Positions 4,229-46,631 of a DNA stretch of 64,000 nucleotides are shown here, one piece after another (position 1 is the stretch's first letter; each line of letters starts with the position of its first letter). The stretch is from contig JBFXGK010000001.1 in the NCBI GenBank assembly GCA_050178035.1, forward strand, positions 128,679 to 192,678. Direction: 5' to 3'. The translations under genes and the position numbers were made by a program. Under the pieces are notes generated by a model, which saw only the letters and a list, made by a program, of their open reading frames with translations, searched no databases and was not told where the DNA came from. The stretch is from Kiritimatiellia bacterium (GTDB lineage Bacteria; Verrucomicrobiota; Kiritimatiellia; JAKQHR01).

Positions 4229-5022
4229 TACCCGTGTGATTCGGTCGGGAACCGGCCCTGCTCGACTTCGTCCTTGTAGCTGGTCAGGGCGCGGGTGATT
4301 TCGGTGCCGAGTTCGGCGTAGCGTTTCACGAAGCGCGGCTGATTCCCATGATAGAGGCCAAGCAAATCGTGCCAGACCAGCACCTGACCATCACACCCGG
4401 GGCCTGCACCGATTCCAATGGTTGGAATATTTATCGAGGCGGTAATTTCTGCCGCCAGTTTCTGCGGAATGCATTCAAGCACCAGCGAAAAAGCTCCGGC
4501 CTCGGCCAGGTCTTTCGCGTCCTGTTTGAGCTGCTCCGCATCTTGTTCTGTTTTGGCCTGAACCCTGAACCCTCCAAAAACATTTACGCTCTGCGGGGTC
4601 AAACCAAGATGGGCCTGCACCGGGATCCCGTTGGCCACCATTCGTTGAACCAGTTCAACGCGCACGGCCCCGCCCTCGACCTTGACGGCATCAGCCCCGG
4701 CTTCTTTTAAAAACCGCCCGGCATTGATCAATGCTTCGTCTTCGGAGCCCTGATAGGAAAGAAAAGGCATGTCCGCCACCACCATGGCCTGTTTCACGGC
4801 TCGCGAAACCGCGCGGGTGTGGTGAAGCATTTCTTCCATGGTGACGGGAAGCGTTGTGTCGTATCCAAGAACAGTCATGCCCAGCGAGTCTCCCACAAGC
4901 ACCAGCGGGATGCCCGCCTCGTCCGCGATCCGGGCGGATGAAAAATCATAGGCCGTGATGCAGGCAATTTTCCGCTGACCCTTCTGGGCCTTGATCGTGA
5001 GCACTGTCCACTGTTTTTTCAT
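4225..5022 (-). CDS. panB: 3-methyl-2-oxobutanoate hydroxymethyltransferase
   Basis: ORF 4225..5073; [24 protein letters not shown] motifs. Start set to ATG at 5022 (MKKQWTVL), just after folK stop. Confidence 0.9.
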
Positions 5023-7752: not shown

Positions 7753-7829
7753 TTCCAATGATTGGAAGTTTCTTTCTGAAAAGTTCCAACCATTGGAAAA
7801 TCTAAACACGATTCCTCCAATGATTGGAA
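7753..7829. promoter_or_regulatory. array of three 7-1-7 palindromes TTCCAAT-N-ATTGGAA, 31-bp centre spacing, 30-106 bp upstream of dapA start
   Basis: Read directly: TTCCAATGATTGGAA 7753-7767, TTCCAACCATTGGAA 7784-7798, cTCCAATGATTGGAA 7815-7829. Confidence 0.5.
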
Positions 7830-7919
7830 GTTTTTACGCATTATTTTCCAGCGGCTGGAACTTAAAGTCAGCCTCCGGCCGACACCCGGAACGCTGGTGT
7901 CCTTCCGCAGAAAATCCGC

Positions 7920-22854: not shown

Positions 22855-22931
22855 TTCCAATCATTGGAAGTATTTCCGGGAAAAGTTCCAACCATTGGAA
22901 GTTTTGTGAAGAAAAGTTCCAATGATTGGAA
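22855..22931. promoter_or_regulatory. array of three 7-1-7 palindromes TTCCAAT-N-ATTGGAA, 31-bp centre spacing, upstream of the Cys-rich/rrf2/hcp operon
   Basis: TTCCAATCATTGGAA 22855-22869, TTCCAACCATTGGAA 22886-22900, TTCCAATGATTGGAA 22917-22931. Confidence 0.55.
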
Positions 22932-44422: not shown

Positions 44423-44510
44423 GCCTGCATACTAAACAGCGGCTGGACGCCTGAACAGGGAATAATAAGTCCGAAATTGAATCGCCGCGCGGATTATGTA
44501 TATTCATTGC

Positions 44511-44744
44511 ATGAAAGTAACAGTTAACCATACGGCCCATCTGAAACTGACGGGCATAGAACCGGGCAAGTCGGCGGAGATTGAAACCGGCGCCTCCATC
44601 GCCGATTTACTGCGAAAGTGCGGCGTGCAGGAATCCCATCTGCAGTTTGTGACACCCTATGTCAACGGGAAGGAAGTCCGCATCCATCACGTCCTTCAGG
44701 ACGGCGATGAATTAAAACTTTTCCTTCCGGTCGGCGGAGGCTGA
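44511..44744 (+). CDS. ThiS/MoaD-family sulfur-carrier-like small protein
   Basis: ORF 44496..44744; from MKVTVNH, 77 aa, ends in ...LFLPVGGG (C-terminal Gly-Gly). Confidence 0.6.
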   Translation: MKVTVNHTAHLKLTGIEPGKSAEIETGASIADLLRKCGVQESHLQFVTPYVNGKEVRIHHVLQDGDELKLFLPVGGG

Positions 44745-44747
44745 AAC

Positions 44748-44793
44748 TTCCAATCATTGGAAGTATTATAACGAATAGTTCCAGGGATTGGAA
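44748..44793. promoter_or_regulatory. two 7-1-7 palindromes, 31-bp centre spacing, 63-108 bp upstream of iorA
   Basis: TTCCAATCATTGGAA 44748-44762; TTCCAGGGATTGGAA 44779-44793 (degenerate left half). Confidence 0.5.
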
Positions 44794-44855
44794 CTTTTAC
44801 AAAGGCCTGCCTCCTTGCATAAATTCTTTCATTTGTTAAAGTCGGCCATTCTTGT

Positions 44856-46631
44856 TTGCGGCAGGATATGAAACCGACAAAAACACTGATGCTGGGAAAT
44901 GAAGCGATTGCGCGCGGCGCCTGGGAAGCCGGCGTGCGCGTGGCCACGGCCTATCCCGGCACTCCCAGCACCGAAGTCACCGAACACATCGCGCAGTACA
45001 AGGAAATAGATTCCGAGTGGTCGGTGAATGAAAAAGTCGCACTGGAAGTAGCGATTGGCGCTTCCGTGGCCGGCGCGCGCGCAGTCTGCACGATGAAGCA
45101 CGTTGGCCTCAATGTGGCCATGGATCCCCTGCTCTCGATTTCTTATCCCGGCGTCAATGCGGGGCTGGTGGTCGTGGTGGCGGACGACCCCGGACAGCAC
45201 AGTTCCCAGAACGAGCAGGACACCCGCTATTTCGGCATGGCCGGAAAGCTGCCGGTGCTCGAACCGTCCGACAGCCGCGAGTGCCGCGATTTCATGATCC
45301 GCGCGTTTGAAATCAGCGAGAAATTTGACACCCCTGTGATCGTTCGCACAACCACGCGCGTGGCCCACGCCTATGGTCTCGTGGATCATGGCGAGCGCGC
45401 TGACGTTCCGCTGCGCGAGTACGACAGCCGATTCGGGAAATACATGGTCGCGCCCGCATTCTCGCGCAAGCGCCGCGTGGTGGCCGAGGAGCGTCTTGGG
45501 AAACTGCGCGGGTTCGCGGAAACCACCGACTTGAATGTTTATGAGGAAGGCCGGTCTGATACCTGCATCGTCACCGGGAGCATTGCTTATCAGTACTGCA
45601 AGGAAGTCATGCCCGAGGCCGGTTTCTGCAAACTGGGGCTTTCGTATCCCCTGCCCGAAAAGAAGCTGAAAGATTTCTGCAGACGGTACCAGCAGGTTTT
45701 CGTTGTTGAGGAACTGGAACCCATTTTCGAAAACCACCTGAAGACGCTCGGAATCCCAGTGATTGGAAAAGATAAAGTTCCAATCATTGGAGAATTGAGC
45801 ACGGAGATCGTCCGAAAGGCGCTGACCGGGATTGCTCCGAAGCCGGCAGCATCCCAATTTGAAAACCTTCCTGTTCGTCCTCCGGTGCTCTGCCCCGGAT
45901 GCCATCACCGCGGACCGTTCTATGTGATGAAGAAACTCAAGCTGAAAGTGGCCGGCGACATCGGATGCTACACGCTGACCGCCTCGCCGCCGCTGAGCAT
46001 CATGGACACCGCGATCTGCATGGGCGCGGGCATCGGCATGGCCTTCGGCATGCAGAAGGCGCGCGGAAAGGATTTCGCGGGAAAATCTATCGCGGTCATC
46101 GGCGACTCGACCTTCTGGCATTCCGGCATGACCGGCCTCCTGGACATTGTCTATAACCGCGGCATCACCACGGTTGTCATTTTGGACAACAGCATCACCG
46201 CGATGACCGGGCATCAGGAGAATCCATCCAGCGGCAGGACTCTCAGCGGAGAAACCGTGCCTGCGATCAGCTTTGCGGATTTTGCAAAATCCATCGGCAT
46301 CAGGCATGTGCGCGAAGTGGATGCCTTCAACCTGAAGGAACTCGAAACAGTCATGCGCGAGGAACTGGCGCGCGAGGAGCCGTCGGTGATCATCACCAAA
46401 CGCATCTGCATCCTGCACCCGTGTGCGGTCAGGCATTTCCCGCTGAAGGTGAATCCGGATCTCTGCAAGAGCTGCATGAAATGCCTTTCGATCGGATGCC
46501 CCGCCATTTCCTTCGACGGCGACAAGGTGAAGATTGATCAGGTGCTTTGCGTGGGATGCGAACTGTGCGCGGGCATATGCCCGTTCCATGCGATTGAAAA
46601 GCAGCCCAAACCCGACGGAGGCGAATCTTGA
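44856..46631 (+). CDS. iorA: indolepyruvate ferredoxin oxidoreductase subunit alpha
   Basis: 591 aa; TPP-binding and 4Fe-4S ferredoxin motifs (CKSCMKC...CPAISF, CVGCELCAGICP). Confidence 0.95.
   Translation: MRQDMKPTKTLMLGNEAIARGAWEAGVRVATAYPGTPSTEVTEHIAQYKEIDSEWSVNEKVALEVAIGASVAGARAVCTMKHVGLNVAMDPLLSISYPGVNAGLVVVVADDPGQHSSQNEQDTRYFGMAGKLPVLEPSDSRECRDFMIRAFEISEKFDTPVIVRTTTRVAHAYGLVDHGERADVPLREYDSRFGKYMVAPAFSRKRRVVAEERLGKLRGFAETTDLNVYEEGRSDTCIVTGSIAYQYCKEVMPEAGFCKLGLSYPLPEKKLKDFCRRYQQVFVVEELEPIFENHLKTLGIPVIGKDKVPIIGELSTEIVRKALTGIAPKPAASQFENLPVRPPVLCPGCHHRGPFYVMKKLKLKVAGDIGCYTLTASPPLSIMDTAICMGAGIGMAFGMQKARGKDFAGKSIAVIGDSTFWHSGMTGLLDIVYNRGITTVVILDNSITAMTGHQENPSSGRTLSGETVPAISFADFAKSIGIRHVREVDAFNLKELETVMREELAREEPSVIITKRICILHPCAVRHFPLKVNPDLCKSCMKCLSIGCPAISFDGDKVKIDQVLCVGCELCAGICPFHAIEKQPKPDGGES

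What the first reader, a model, noticed from the sequence alone, without database searches (positions are those of the whole stretch)
44748..44793. Palindrome pair upstream of iorA, plus two weaker in-frame copies inside iorA
Sites at 44748-44762 and 44779-44793 (31-bp spacing again) lie 63-108 bp upstream of iorA, immediately after the ThiS-like gene. Inside iorA, at 45754-45768 and 45778-45792, two degenerate copies (TCCCAGTGATTGGAA, TTCCAATCATTGGAg) are spaced 24 bp apart and encode P-V-I-G and P-I-I-G in frame. The internal pair may be a coding coincidence, since CCA-NTN-ATT-GGA is palindromic by itself, or a genuine intragenic operator.
Basis: seen in the sequence. Interest (0 to 1): 0.6.

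Follow-up and report, generated by a model that had tools for sequence, protein, structure and literature searches.

The report
Phased palindrome array upstream of iorA
The two palindromes in front of iorA are real, but they are one local copy of a previously undescribed 15-bp palindrome that Kiritimatiellia-type bacteria (and some of their phages) scatter through their genomes in arrays spaced by whole DNA turns and even write into genes through rare codons, so they are most likely docking sites for an unknown abundant DNA-binding protein rather than a private switch for iorA.

Summary
Observation confirmed exactly. TTCCAATCATTGGAA (44748-62) and TTCCAGGGATTGGAA (44779-93) lie 31 bp apart, between a ThiS-like gene and iorA. 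The core TTCCA-N5-TGGAA occurs 9 times in the window against 0.06 expected. It forms further 31-bp arrays before dapA and an hcp operon.

All come from Kiritimatiellia-type PVC MAGs. Twenty-one viral contigs also matched.

Arrays hold 2-8 sites, spaced 22, 31/32 or 42 bp. They occur in tandem, divergent and convergent gaps, next to about 125 unrelated protein families. This is not a pathway regulon.

At iorA the array is conserved in 92-98% relatives with 2, 3 or 4 copies. It keeps a fixed distance from an invariant promoter-like block, even where the upstream gene differs.

The intragenic copies sit on peptides conserved in all IorA. They use rare codons (CCA is 5% of Pro). Orthologues from genomes with no motif detected encode the same peptides without the palindrome. 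A panB site is identical across saturated synonymous divergence.

Best reading: cooperative binding sites of an unidentified oligomerising DNA-binding protein. That protein and its function remain unknown.

The parts
44748..44762 (.). Distal site of the iorA array, TTCCAATCATTGGAA (perfect 7-1-7 palindrome). It begins 3 nt after the ThiS-like stop codon.
   Evidence: 24.0 bits. It aligns with the TTCCAACCATTGGAA site in L120-L123.
44779..44793 (.). Proximal site of the iorA array, TTCCAGGGATTGGAA, 31 bp from the distal site.
   Evidence: 19.8 bits. The position is invariant relative to the downstream conserved block in L120-L123. The sequence is TTCCAATGATTGGAA in the 92% relatives.
44815..44842 (+). 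Inferred sigma-70-type promoter of iorA: TTGCAT, 16 nt, TAAAGT preceded by TGn. If it is the promoter, the site centres fall near -63 and -94.
   Evidence: This block (CCTTGCATAAATT..TTTCAT.TG.TAAAGTCGGCC) is invariant between the window and the 92-98% relatives, while the 15 nt between it and the proximal site vary. It is an inference only; no TSS data exist. The consensus scan instead proposed TTTACA-N18-TAAATT at 44796-44825.
45754..45768 (+). Intragenic site 1 in iorA, TCCCAGTGATTGGAA, codons ATC CCA GTG ATT GGA AAA (I-P-V-I-G-K).
   Evidence: 15.4 bits. It becomes an exact core, TTCCAGTCATTGGAA, in the 92% relatives.
45778..45792 (+). Intragenic site 2 in iorA, TTCCAATCATTGGAG, codons (AAA) GTT CCA ATC ATT GGA GAA (K-V-P-I-I-G-E). 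It is the best match the invariant Glu codon allows, and its AAAG flank matches this genome's extended consensus.
   Evidence: 22.0 bits. The peptide P-x-I-G-E is invariant or nearly so in 121 IorA sequences. L139 has the same peptide encoded as GTG CCG ATC ATC GGT GAG.
7753..7860 (.). Four-site array of the same family (7753, 7784, 7815, 7846; 31-bp period). It ends 29 nt upstream of the dapA start (7723, minus strand) and lies downstream of an IS transposase gene.
22855..22931 (.). Three-site array of the same family (22855, 22886, 22917). It lies 93 nt upstream of a 123-aa Cys-rich ORF, which is followed by Rrf2, hcp and ferredoxin genes (minus strand). It lies 30 nt after the stop of the 445-aa gene upstream.
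4413..4427 (-). Single intragenic site in panB, TTCCAACCATTGGAA on the coding strand, codons ATT CCA ACC ATT GGA ATC (I-P-T-I-G-I).
   Evidence: The identical 15-mer is present in panB of L168, at 63% protein identity and with 54% of identical residues differing synonymously.

Best explanation
The iorA pair is one array of a lineage-wide family of 15-19-bp palindromes. The consensus is aaa-tT-TTCCAAnSnTTGGAA-Aa-ttt, with the centre always C or G. I propose these are cooperative binding sites on double-stranded DNA for an unidentified, abundant, dimeric DNA-binding protein. That protein would oligomerise along one face of the helix or wrap the DNA, in the style of a nucleoid-associated or global architectural protein.

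Shown:
- The motif is hugely over-represented.
- It is arranged at spacings that are whole helical turns.
- It occurs at gene boundaries of every type, inside genes and in phages.
- It is kept by selection at the DNA level.
- At iorA it is conserved with variable copy number and a fixed register to a conserved promoter-like block.

Inferred:
- A protein binds it.
- At iorA the bound array acts as a promoter-upstream architectural or boundary element. It would modulate the iorA-iorB-paaK-ACT promoter, with site centres near -63 and -94, and/or insulate it from transcription coming from upstream.
- The two intragenic copies are additional, weaker docking points of the same protein, placed where the protein sequence allows.
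For: 1. Over-representation. 9 cores against 0.06 expected in the window. At least 119 genomic stretches with pairs, from 64 assemblies, against roughly 1-2 expected in 596 Gb (my own estimate assuming equal base frequencies).

2. Phasing. Outside the seeded 30-33 bp class, neighbouring sites lie at 21-22 (23 cases), 41-43 (6), 51/53 (2) and 61-66 (6). None falls between these classes. Single genomes use almost only 31 or only 32. Spacer sequence is free while spacer length is fixed.

3. Sequence conservation, not covariation. The centre is C/G in 98% of sites, and the flanks are symmetric whatever the direction of transcription. This fits a symmetric dimer on DNA rather than an RNA stem.

4. 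Not tied to gene function. 107 neighbouring genes fall into 99 clusters and 125 Pfam families. Arrays fall in tandem, divergent and convergent gaps at 68/27/11, against 195/70/47 for all gaps. Clean convergent cases exist.

5. DNA-level selection inside genes.
- 3 of 5 PxIG peptides in the window are spelled CCA-NNN-ATT-GGA, against 0.017 expected.
- Coding sequence compared with synonymous shuffles gives 7 against 2.2 in the window, and 23 against 3.5 in other loci.
- The peptide FQxLE occurs 11 times against 1.2 expected, and all 11 carry the core.
- The panB 15-mer is identical across saturated synonymous divergence.
- IorA and GluRS orthologues keep the peptide without the motif in genomes that lack the motif or are poor in it.

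6. At iorA. There are 2, 3 or 4 copies in the window, L121, and L120/L122/L123. The proximal site has a fixed register to an invariant promoter-like block. The array stays with iorA when the upstream ThiS-like gene is replaced by a divergent gene.

7. Phage contigs carry the arrays in intergenic positions. This fits a signal read by a host factor.
Against: - No binding protein was identified. The only transcription-factor lead, a PerR-like gene behind an array in L105, has its own different box in orthologues.
- Selection strong enough to fix rare codons is unusual for ordinary transcription-factor or nucleoid-protein sites. It fits drive-type elements better.
- Some arrays are mosaics with GC-rich hairpin modules, as in BIMEs.
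- No promoter element is found at a fixed distance from arrays in general.
- At dapA the array ends 29 nt before the start codon, so its position relative to promoters is not uniform.
- In the isolate Tichowtungia aerotolerans, the 21-kb sample has only single sites, 4 of 6 of them in coding sequence.
- Gene calls in foreign loci come from my own codon-usage caller, and those loci were selected for having arrays.
Confidence: 0.5

Rival explanations
1. The element is a REP/BIME-like mosaic repeat. It would be a dispersed palindromic element spread and resized by a transposase or recombination process. It would be tolerated mainly after stop codons and possibly co-opted for mRNA 3'-end stabilisation or attenuation, or as a gyrase or nucleoid-protein site. 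The iorA copy would then be a generic intergenic passenger.
For: - Copy number varies between close relatives, at 2, 3 or 4.
- Arrays occur in all types of intergenic gap in proportion to availability.
- In tandem gaps they lie nearer the upstream stop codon, 50 against 15.
- They form mosaics with GC-rich hairpin modules: ATCCCGCGTGGGCGGGAT in L006 and L010, and GTAGCCGCGCACGGTGGGCGCGG.. in L169.
- A Y1 transposase gene is present in L167.
- Small GC-rich in-frame insertions lie exactly inside motif sites of gltX.
- Neighbouring copies can pair into long hairpins, with z about -4.6.
Against: - The core is conserved across many Kiritimatiellia-type assemblies, with only dialect changes. REPs are usually specific to a species or family.
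- Spacers differ in sequence, so arrays are not recent tandem copies.
- Sites inside genes arise by codon choice without any insertion, and they persist through saturated divergence. A copy-and-paste element does not explain this.
- The 7-1-7 AT-rich unit is a poor stem-loop.
- No RAYT-like gene was found in 1.25 Mb of array loci.
Confidence: 0.2
2. The element is an uptake-signal-like motif or another drive-type genomic signature, analogous to DUS/USS or HIP1. The motif would accumulate wherever it is tolerated, because DNA carrying it is preferentially taken up, recombined or repaired. Its placement at iorA would then be incidental.
For: - About half of the sites in the unbiased samples lie in coding sequence.
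- Codon-level and even amino-acid-level shaping is seen.
- Lineage dialects exist, TTCCAA..TTGGAA against TTCCAC..GTGGAA.
- Single palindromes lie in convergent gaps.
- Density varies greatly between genomes, from 2 to 17 per 21 kb.
Against: - To my knowledge, known uptake sequences are asymmetric, unphased and not arrayed. Here a strict palindrome occurs in arrays of up to 8 at spacings of whole helical turns.
- The iorA array keeps a fixed register to a promoter block.
- Phages carry arrays.
- To my knowledge, competence has not been described in this group.
Confidence: 0.08
3. The element acts at the RNA level. The transcribed palindromes would fold into hairpins that terminate transcription bidirectionally or protect the 3' end of the upstream mRNA (thiS-like here).
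For: - The first site starts 3 nt after the ThiS-like stop codon.
- In this lineage the sites are flanked by AAAAG...CTTTT, and the pair folds to -33 kcal/mol (z -4.6) followed by CUUUU.
- Arrays often abut stop codons, including after phage capsid-type genes.
- Arrays lie in convergent gaps.
Against: - In the 92% relatives the same array lies in a divergent gap, with no gene end upstream.
- Divergent gaps are not depleted of arrays.
- There is no polarity with respect to transcription, and in general no U-run after the sites.
- The sequence is conserved without covariation.
- Quantised spacings are not needed for RNA hairpins.
- Rfam finds nothing.
Confidence: 0.07
4. This is the first reader's implied model: an operator pair for a dedicated transcription factor that controls iorAB-paaK (aromatic amino-acid or arylacetate metabolism), with the other arrays forming a small regulon.
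For: - The pair lies upstream of a conserved promoter-like block, and its register is conserved.
- It stays with iorA when the upstream gene changes.
- The palindrome has the 7-1-7 layout typical of dimeric regulators.
Against: - The same motif lies next to dapA, hcp, sulfatases, pheS, secA, murF, glycosyltransferases and others, in about 125 families.
- It lies in promoter-less convergent gaps, in coding sequence and in phages.
- No regulator gene is linked to arrays.
- Distant iorA operons (L124-L140) have no such sites.
Confidence: 0.05

Closest known systems
Lrp/AsnC (feast/famine) protein binding-site arrays, and likewise NrdR box pairs and NtrC-type enhancer site pairs
   Same: These are 13-16-bp palindromes, bound by dimers that assemble into higher oligomers. 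Neighbouring sites lie about three helical turns (30-32 bp) apart, 2-6 per promoter. This description rests on my own knowledge of the literature on E. coli Lrp at pap and ilvIH, on Pyrococcus FL11 and on NrdR boxes. The geometry of the iorA, dapA and hcp arrays matches it.
   Different: The motif sequence is unrelated. The sites here are not confined to promoters or to amino-acid or nucleotide genes. They occur in convergent gaps, in coding sequence with codon-level selection, and in phages. No Lrp, AsnC or NrdR gene was found near arrays.
REP / BIME elements of enterobacteria and pseudomonads
   Same: Both are dispersed palindromes at gene boundaries, often just after stop codons. Both form arrays whose copy number varies between close relatives, and both are mosaics with other short modules. 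To my knowledge REP/BIMEs also bind host DNA proteins (IHF, gyrase) and serve as targets for insertions.
   Different: Here the unit is a short AT-rich 7-1-7 palindrome with free spacers of fixed length. It is conserved across many Kiritimatiellia-type assemblies. It is present inside genes through synonymous codon choice. No RAYT was found.
Genome-wide over-represented motifs kept inside genes: DUS/USS uptake sequences and cyanobacterial HIP1
   Same: All show strong over-representation in both coding and non-coding DNA, shaping of codon choice, lineage dialects, and inverted copies between convergent genes.
   Different: Those motifs are 8-12 nt and are neither arrayed nor helically phased. 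This one is a 15-19-bp dyad in arrays of up to 8.
ParB-family operator sites (parS, Noc NBS, KorB OB)
   Same: These are palindromic sites of 13-16 bp found in both genes and intergenic DNA. The KorB operator TTTAGCSGCTAAA is an odd palindrome with a central S, like this motif. The half-sites GTTTCAC (parS) and ATTTCCC (NBS) resemble TTTTCCA(A/C). This comparison rests on memory and is a lead only.
   Different: The half-sites here are separated by 3 bp. There appear to be several sites per 20-60 kb sampled, which would mean hundreds per genome if that density holds. They are arrayed at 31-32 bp. No ParB paralogue is linked to them. The ParB-like gene in L168 scores as an ordinary ParB/Spo0J domain protein.
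Fur-family 7-1-7 boxes and DnaA boxes
   Same: The 7-1-7 layout with an inner AAT-N-ATT is that of Fur/PerR/Zur boxes. The TTTTCCACA half of the 'CAC dialect' fits the DnaA-box consensus TTWTNCACA.
   Different: PerR-like orthologues have their own box, TAGTAATnATTACTA, and no TTCCA arrays. The window's dialect, TTCCAAT, does not fit a DnaA box. To my knowledge DnaA specificity does not normally vary within a class.

Membership tests
Gene- or pathway-specific transcription-factor operator (regulon) | Sites are restricted to promoter regions of functionally related genes. | tested here: not met
   Neighbouring genes fall into 99 clusters and 125 Pfam families. There are 11 arrays in convergent gaps, and sites occur in coding sequence.
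Gene- or pathway-specific transcription-factor operator (regulon) | A cognate regulator gene is linked to, or autoregulated by, the sites. | tested here: not met
   No transcription-factor family recurs next to arrays. The PerR-like gene behind the L105 array has a different box in four orthologous loci.
REP/BIME | Strictly extragenic location. | tested here: not met
   Sites lie in panB, iorA, gltX and others, conserved through codon choice.
REP/BIME | A 20-40-nt GC-rich imperfect palindrome that forms a stable stem-loop, with a conserved GTAG-type end recognised by a RAYT transposase. | tested here: not met
   The unit is an AT-rich 15-mer with one central base. No RAYT hit was found in 1.25 Mb of loci. 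That sample is partial, so RAYT absence at the genome level remains open.
REP/BIME | Arrays with variable copy number and mosaic linkers. | tested here: met
   There are 2, 3 or 4 copies at iorA in relatives. GC-rich modules lie between sites in L006, L010 and L169.
Lrp/AsnC-type phased arrays | Palindromes of about 15 bp at about three helical turns, in arrays of 2-6. | tested here: met
   Spacing is 31 bp (117 cases) or 32 bp (65 cases), and arrays hold 2-8 sites.
Lrp/AsnC-type phased arrays | Bound by an Lrp/AsnC-family protein. | not testable with these tools
   No Lrp-like gene lies in the window or loci. Whole genomes could not be searched.
Fur-family box | The box lies upstream of the fur-family gene and its stress or metal regulon in orthologous loci. 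| tested here: not met
   L141-L144 have TAGTAATnATTACTA upstream of the gene and no TTCCA sites in 6-10 kb.
Uptake signal sequences (DUS/USS) | Strong over-representation in coding and non-coding DNA, with codon shaping and dialects. | tested here: met
Uptake signal sequences (DUS/USS) | An asymmetric motif, in single copies or simple inverted pairs, with no phased arrays. | tested here: not met
   The motif is an obligate dyad, in arrays of up to 8 at spacings of 22, 31/32 or 42 bp.
Intrinsic (Rho-independent) terminator | A GC-rich stem followed by a U-run on the transcribed strand, at 3' ends only. | tested here: not met
   The flanks are symmetric and there is no U-run in general. Arrays occur in divergent gaps. 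Two to three G-C pairs per unit is my reading of the sequence.
Known RNA families (Rfam 15) | A match at the gathering score. | tested here: not met
   There were 0 matches in the whole window.
DnaA boxes | A 9-mer matching TTWTNCACA. | tested here: not met
   The window's sites read (G/C)TTCCAAT. Only the CAC dialect of other genomes fits.
Sigma-54 promoter with enhancer sites | GG-N10-GC (-24/-12) downstream of the sites. | tested here: not met
   The window has GG-N11-GC. The 92% relatives have no GG at the required position.

The most novel reading that the evidence does not exclude
Many Kiritimatiellia-type bacteria may possess a previously unknown chromosome-wide 'lattice' system. A sequence-specific protein would polymerise or load on phased TTCCAAnSnTTGGAA arrays at gene boundaries, and on single sites written into genes. 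It would act as a general insulator or roadblock, or as a clamp-loading signal. That signal would partition transcription units or organise the nucleoid, and the bacteria's phages would copy it. Protein and motif would co-evolve, which would account for the dialects and for the genome-specific 31- or 32-bp lattice constant. The iorA array would be one such boundary element.
Probability: 0.25. Interest if true: 0.85.

Novelty: new variant of a known kind. Interest (0 to 1): 0.7.

Why it matters
If a protein reads this motif, it would define a major layer of genome organisation or global regulation that no one has studied, in a widespread and poorly characterised group of polysaccharide-degrading anaerobes. 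It would also be a rare case in which a long DNA signal visibly constrains codon choice, and even protein sequence.

In practical terms:
- The motif may prove a useful sequence marker for this lineage and its phages in metagenomes, but this needs an uncapped scan.
- It cautions against reading any single array, such as the one at iorA, as a pathway-specific operator.
- It is directly testable, because a cultured isolate with a complete genome, Tichowtungia aerotolerans, carries the motif.

Tried and rejected
1. Sigma-54 promoter with enhancer sites. The GG..GC spacing is one base too long in the window and the element is absent in relatives.

2. The pair itself acting as a promoter (TTGGAA-N17-TCCAAT). 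It lacks the essential A at -11, and across 106 arrays there is no positional enrichment of -10 or -35 elements downstream.

3. A Fur/PerR-family binder. This idea came from the 7-1-7 layout and from an array upstream of a PerR-like gene in L105. Four orthologous loci show a different PerR-type box and no TTCCA sites.

4. Lrp, NrdR, Fur, IHF, HU, Fis, Noc, DnaA domain IV and RAYT genes near arrays. tblastn found only the single L105 Fur-family match.

5. An RNA family or an intrinsic terminator. Rfam is empty, and there is no polarity or U-run.

6. Conservation of arrays at orthologous genes across distant genomes. Only 4 cross-genome coincidences were found among 107 targets, which I estimate is about what chance would give.

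7. Literature. Three full-text searches found no description of the motif or of any Kiritimatiellia regulon.

8. More distant motif-bearing iorA orthologues. The protein database jumps from 92% to 68% identity, and the two 67-68% orthologues examined (L137, L139) lack the motif. The internal-site test therefore relied on codon statistics, on panB and on gltX instead.

9. The ParB-like gene next to gltX in L168. It scores as an ordinary ParB/Spo0J domain protein.
Full report
**1. The observation**

The coordinates are exact.
- 44748-44762 is TTCCAATCATTGGAA, a perfect 7-1-7 palindrome.
- 44779-44793 is TTCCAGGGATTGGAA, 31 bp further on.
- The first site starts 3 nt after the stop of an 82-aa ThiS-family ORF (44496-44744).
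- Downstream lie iorA (ATG 44868 to 46631), iorB, a phenylacetate-CoA-ligase-like gene and an ACT-pair protein.

The core TTCCA-N5-TGGAA occurs 9 times in the window against 0.06 expected. The other copies are:
- a four-site array ending 29 nt before dapA (7753-7860);
- a three-site array before a Cys-rich-ORF/Rrf2/hcp/ferredoxin operon (22855-22931);
- one site inside panB (4413).

All arrays have a 31-bp period. The two intragenic iorA copies are as described and are in frame. Scored with a matrix built from other genomes, they reach 15.4 and 22.0 bits. Intergenic sites score 17-28 bits.

**2. Distribution beyond the window**

I scanned one genome per species (596 Gb) for two cores separated by 15-17 nt. 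By my estimate, assuming equal base frequencies, chance would give about 1-2 hits.
- Every stretch that carries a specific name is Kiritimatiellia, Kiritimatiellales, Pontiellaceae or Tichowtungia.
- The rest carry coarse PVC labels or are simply called 'uncultured bacterium'.
- Some genomes contribute more than ten loci.

Pooling 434 sites gives the consensus aaa-tT-TTCCAA(t/g)S(a/c)TTGGAA-Aa-ttt. The central base is C or G in 98% of sites.

Spacings outside the seeded class fall only at 21-22 (23 cases), 41-43 (6), 51/53 (2) and 61-66 (6). None falls in between. These values are whole numbers of helical turns.

Arrays hold up to 8 sites. Spacer sequences differ while their lengths are fixed.

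Genomes have their own habits:
- almost only 31 bp (RZZM, the window) or almost only 32 bp (CAIVKH, SCQF);
- a minority dialect, TTCCAC..GTGGAA.

Twenty-one IMG/VR viral contigs also carry arrays. Several sit just after capsid-type genes or upstream of a terminase-like gene.

Not every related genome has the motif. Loci L137 and L141-L144 (GC 0.65-0.72, one labelled Kiritimatiellae) show none in 6-14 kb.

I found no description in three full-text literature searches. Rfam has no match in the window.

**3. Not a pathway regulon**

I called genes with a codon-usage caller trained on the window.
- The 107 genes facing arrays fall into 99 similarity clusters.
- 100 of them, scanned against Pfam, hit 125 families. 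These include sulfatases, radical-SAM enzymes, SecA, PheS, Mur ligases and glycosyltransferases.
- Arrays occupy tandem, divergent and convergent gaps at 68/27/11. All gaps of 60 nt or more split 195/70/47.
- Clean cases exist of arrays filling the space between two stop codons: L040, L087, L108 and L069.
- In tandem gaps, arrays lie nearer the upstream stop than the downstream start (50 against 15). The median distances are 56 and 143 nt.
- There is no polarity with respect to transcription.
- No promoter element lies at a fixed distance from arrays.

Unbiased 21-kb samples, chosen through gltX rather than through the motif, give:
- 6 exact cores in the isolate Tichowtungia aerotolerans, 4 in coding sequence and 2 in convergent gaps;
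- 3 in L167;
- 2 in L168;
- 17 in L169.

**4. The iorA array in relatives**

Metagenome contigs encode IorA at 98% identity (L121) and 92% identity (L120, L122, L123). All keep the array, with 3 and 4 sites against 2 in the window.
- The proximal site keeps the same distance to an invariant block, CCTTGCATAAATT..TTTCAT.TG.TAAAGTCGGCC.
- The 15 nt between the site and the block vary.
- I read the block as a promoter (TTGCAT, 16 nt, TGn-TAAAGT). That would place the site centres near -63 and -94. This is an inference.
- In L121 the ThiS-like gene is upstream, as in the window.
- In the 92% relatives it is absent, and a gene on the other strand appears to start about 45 nt from the array (my reading of the sequence).

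The array therefore travels with the iorA 5' region, not with a gene end. More distant iorA operons (46-68% identity, L124-L140) have no such sites.

**5. The intragenic pair**

The peptides are ancestral. In 121 IorA sequences from many phyla, V/I-P-x-I-G-E-L is almost invariant (P 120, I 111, G 120, E 121). The alignment has no insertion in the window's IorA. The first copy, P-V-I-G-K, is less conserved; P occurs in only 16 sequences.

The palindrome, however, is not forced by the peptide.
- L139 (68% identical, GC 0.59) encodes the same IPVIGK..VPIIGE as ATC CCT GTC ATC GGC AAG .. GTG CCG ATC ATC GGT GAG.
- In the window, CCA is 5% of Pro codons, GGA 19% of Gly and ATT 36% of Ile.
- Three of the five PxIG peptides in the window's genes (two in iorA, one in panB) are spelled CCA-NNN-ATT-GGA. 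The expected number is 0.017.
- Site 2 (AAA GTT CCA ATC ATT GGA GAA) takes the motif-matching codon at every position and misses only where the invariant Glu forbids a match. The joint codon probability is about 1.6e-4 from the frequencies.
- The 92% relatives keep both sites, although 33% of identical residues differ synonymously. The first site becomes an exact core in them.

The same holds more generally.
- Coding sequence of the window has 7 near-matches against 2.2 in synonymous shuffles.
- Genes of other loci, away from arrays, have 23 exact cores against 3.5.
- The peptide FQxLE (TTC CAR NNN YTG GAA) occurs 11 times against 1.2 expected, and always carries the core.
- The panB 15-mer is identical in the window and in L168. 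The two proteins are 63% identical, and 54% of identical residues differ synonymously.
- The GluRS peptide VFQTLEK..(F/L)QxLE is conserved in Kiritimatiellales. FQxLE occurs at least once in 102 of 120 sequences and twice in 57.
- That peptide carries the motif in five genomes (both sites exact in four). In the motif-poor L167 it reads TTT CAA ACC TTA GAA.

The internal copies are therefore maintained at the DNA level. Their 24-bp spacing is simply eight codons and is not an array spacing.

**6. What it most likely is**

Four features point to a symmetric dimeric protein that binds double-stranded DNA cooperatively on one face, or wraps it:
- a strict dyad with conserved sequence and no covariation;
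- an invariant C/G centre;
- symmetric A/T flanks;
- spacings of whole helical turns, with a genome-specific lattice constant.

The geometry is closest to Lrp/AsnC arrays, NrdR boxes or enhancer-binding-protein sites.

Other features say the protein is a general, abundant factor rather than a pathway regulator. These are the genome-wide spread, the indifference to gene function and gap type, the presence in genes and phages, and the dialects. At iorA the conserved register to the promoter block suggests a promoter-upstream architectural or boundary role.

I could not identify the protein.
- The PerR-like lead failed.
- No Lrp, NrdR, IHF/HU, Fis, Noc, DnaA or RAYT gene lies in the 1.25 Mb of fetched loci.

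**7. Rivals**

- *A REP/BIME-like mobile mosaic.* In favour: copy-number variation, GC-rich modules between sites, and insertions inside sites. Against: it does not explain sites made by codon choice, or conservation across many assemblies.
- *An uptake-signal-like drive.* It explains the coding-sequence enrichment and the dialects. It does not explain the obligate dyad, the phased arrays or the fixed register at iorA.
- *An RNA-level terminator.* In favour: the hairpin-plus-CUUUU look in this lineage. Against: divergent-gap arrays, symmetric flanks and the lack of U-runs.
- *A dedicated iorA operator.* The distribution contradicts it.

**8. Limits**

- Taxon labels are NCBI record titles.
- Foreign gene calls come from my own caller, and those loci were chosen for having arrays.
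- Promoter assignments are inferred.
- No binding or expression data exist.

Noticed in passing
L170:2963-4357 (gltX); proteins P0273, P0275, P0283, P0291, P0334: Some Kiritimatiellales GluRS genes carry in-frame GC-rich insertions exactly inside the two motif sites. One is 66 nt (peptide HPTEGxEAGLPQA..., which includes a GGGAGGCC..GGCCTCCC-type hairpin), inserted after GTTTT(T/C). The other is 24 nt (peptide PALSEVEG), inserted between TTG and GAA. The 66-nt type occurs at either site in different genomes. This suggests a small mobile element that targets the palindrome.
   Followed up: partly
L006:2647-2900, L010:3436-3586, L169:2829-4033: Arrays can be mosaics. The 41-42-bp spacers in two different genomes hold the same hairpin, ATCCCGCGTGGGCGGGAT. 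In L169 a GC-rich module, GTAGCCGCGCACGGTGGGCGCGG...CCCGCACCTAC, sits between TTCCAA sites twice. Both recall BIME linkers and REPs.
   Followed up: partly
L006, L010, L014, L053, L054, L073, L083 (for example L053:4923-5011): A minority dialect, TTTTCCAC(A/G)nnGTGGAAAA, often alternates 22- and 30/31-bp spacings. TTTTCCACA-G-TGTGGAAAA reads as two inverted DnaA-box consensus 9-mers one base apart.
   Followed up: partly
loci of assemblies CAIVKH, SCQF (32 bp) and RZZM, window (31 bp): Each genome uses almost exclusively one array period: 22 of 25 spacings are 32 bp in CAIVKH, and 14 of 14 are 31 bp in RZZM. The 'lattice constant' seems to be a heritable property of the lineage.
   Followed up: partly
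L145-L164 (IMG/VR contigs): Putative phage contigs carry the arrays. In L145, L146/L156, L149 and L151 they lie a few to about 50 nt after capsid-type genes or the small gene that follows them. In L147 and L148, 4-6 sites lie upstream of homologous terminase-like genes.
   Followed up: partly
window:7992-9230 (minus strand): A 412-aa transposase-like ORF ends 131 bp from the dapA array. I identified it as IS4/IS5-like from the sequence only and did not check it against Pfam. The window's GC drops to 0.52 there. It may have displaced the original context upstream of dapA.
   Followed up: no
window:19467-22761 (minus strand): This operon holds a 123-aa Cys-rich ORF with no Pfam or NCBIfam match, an Rrf2-family regulator, the hybrid-cluster protein Hcp and a 260-aa ferredoxin-domain protein. 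It lies behind the three-site array. The Rrf2 protein is the likely local regulator and presumably has its own, different operator.
   Followed up: partly
L141-L144, about 40-60 nt upstream of the PerR-like gene: A PerR-type 7-1-7 box, TAGTAAT-N-ATTACTA, is conserved upstream of PerR-like genes. These genes are followed by peroxiredoxin or ferritin/rubrerythrin genes, in relatives that lack TTCCA arrays.
   Followed up: yes
window:5532-6038 (minus strand): A cyclic-nucleotide-binding-domain ORF of about 168 aa (MSFSEQERQ...) with no DNA-binding domain sits between dapB and folK. My gene caller missed it.
   Followed up: no
L167:16240-16707: A Y1 (IS200/IS605-type, PF01797) transposase gene is present in a motif-poor Kiritimatiellales genome. 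It has no TTCCA site nearby.
   Followed up: no
window:1-64000: There is no Rfam family match at gathering score anywhere in 64 kb, on either strand.
   Followed up: yes
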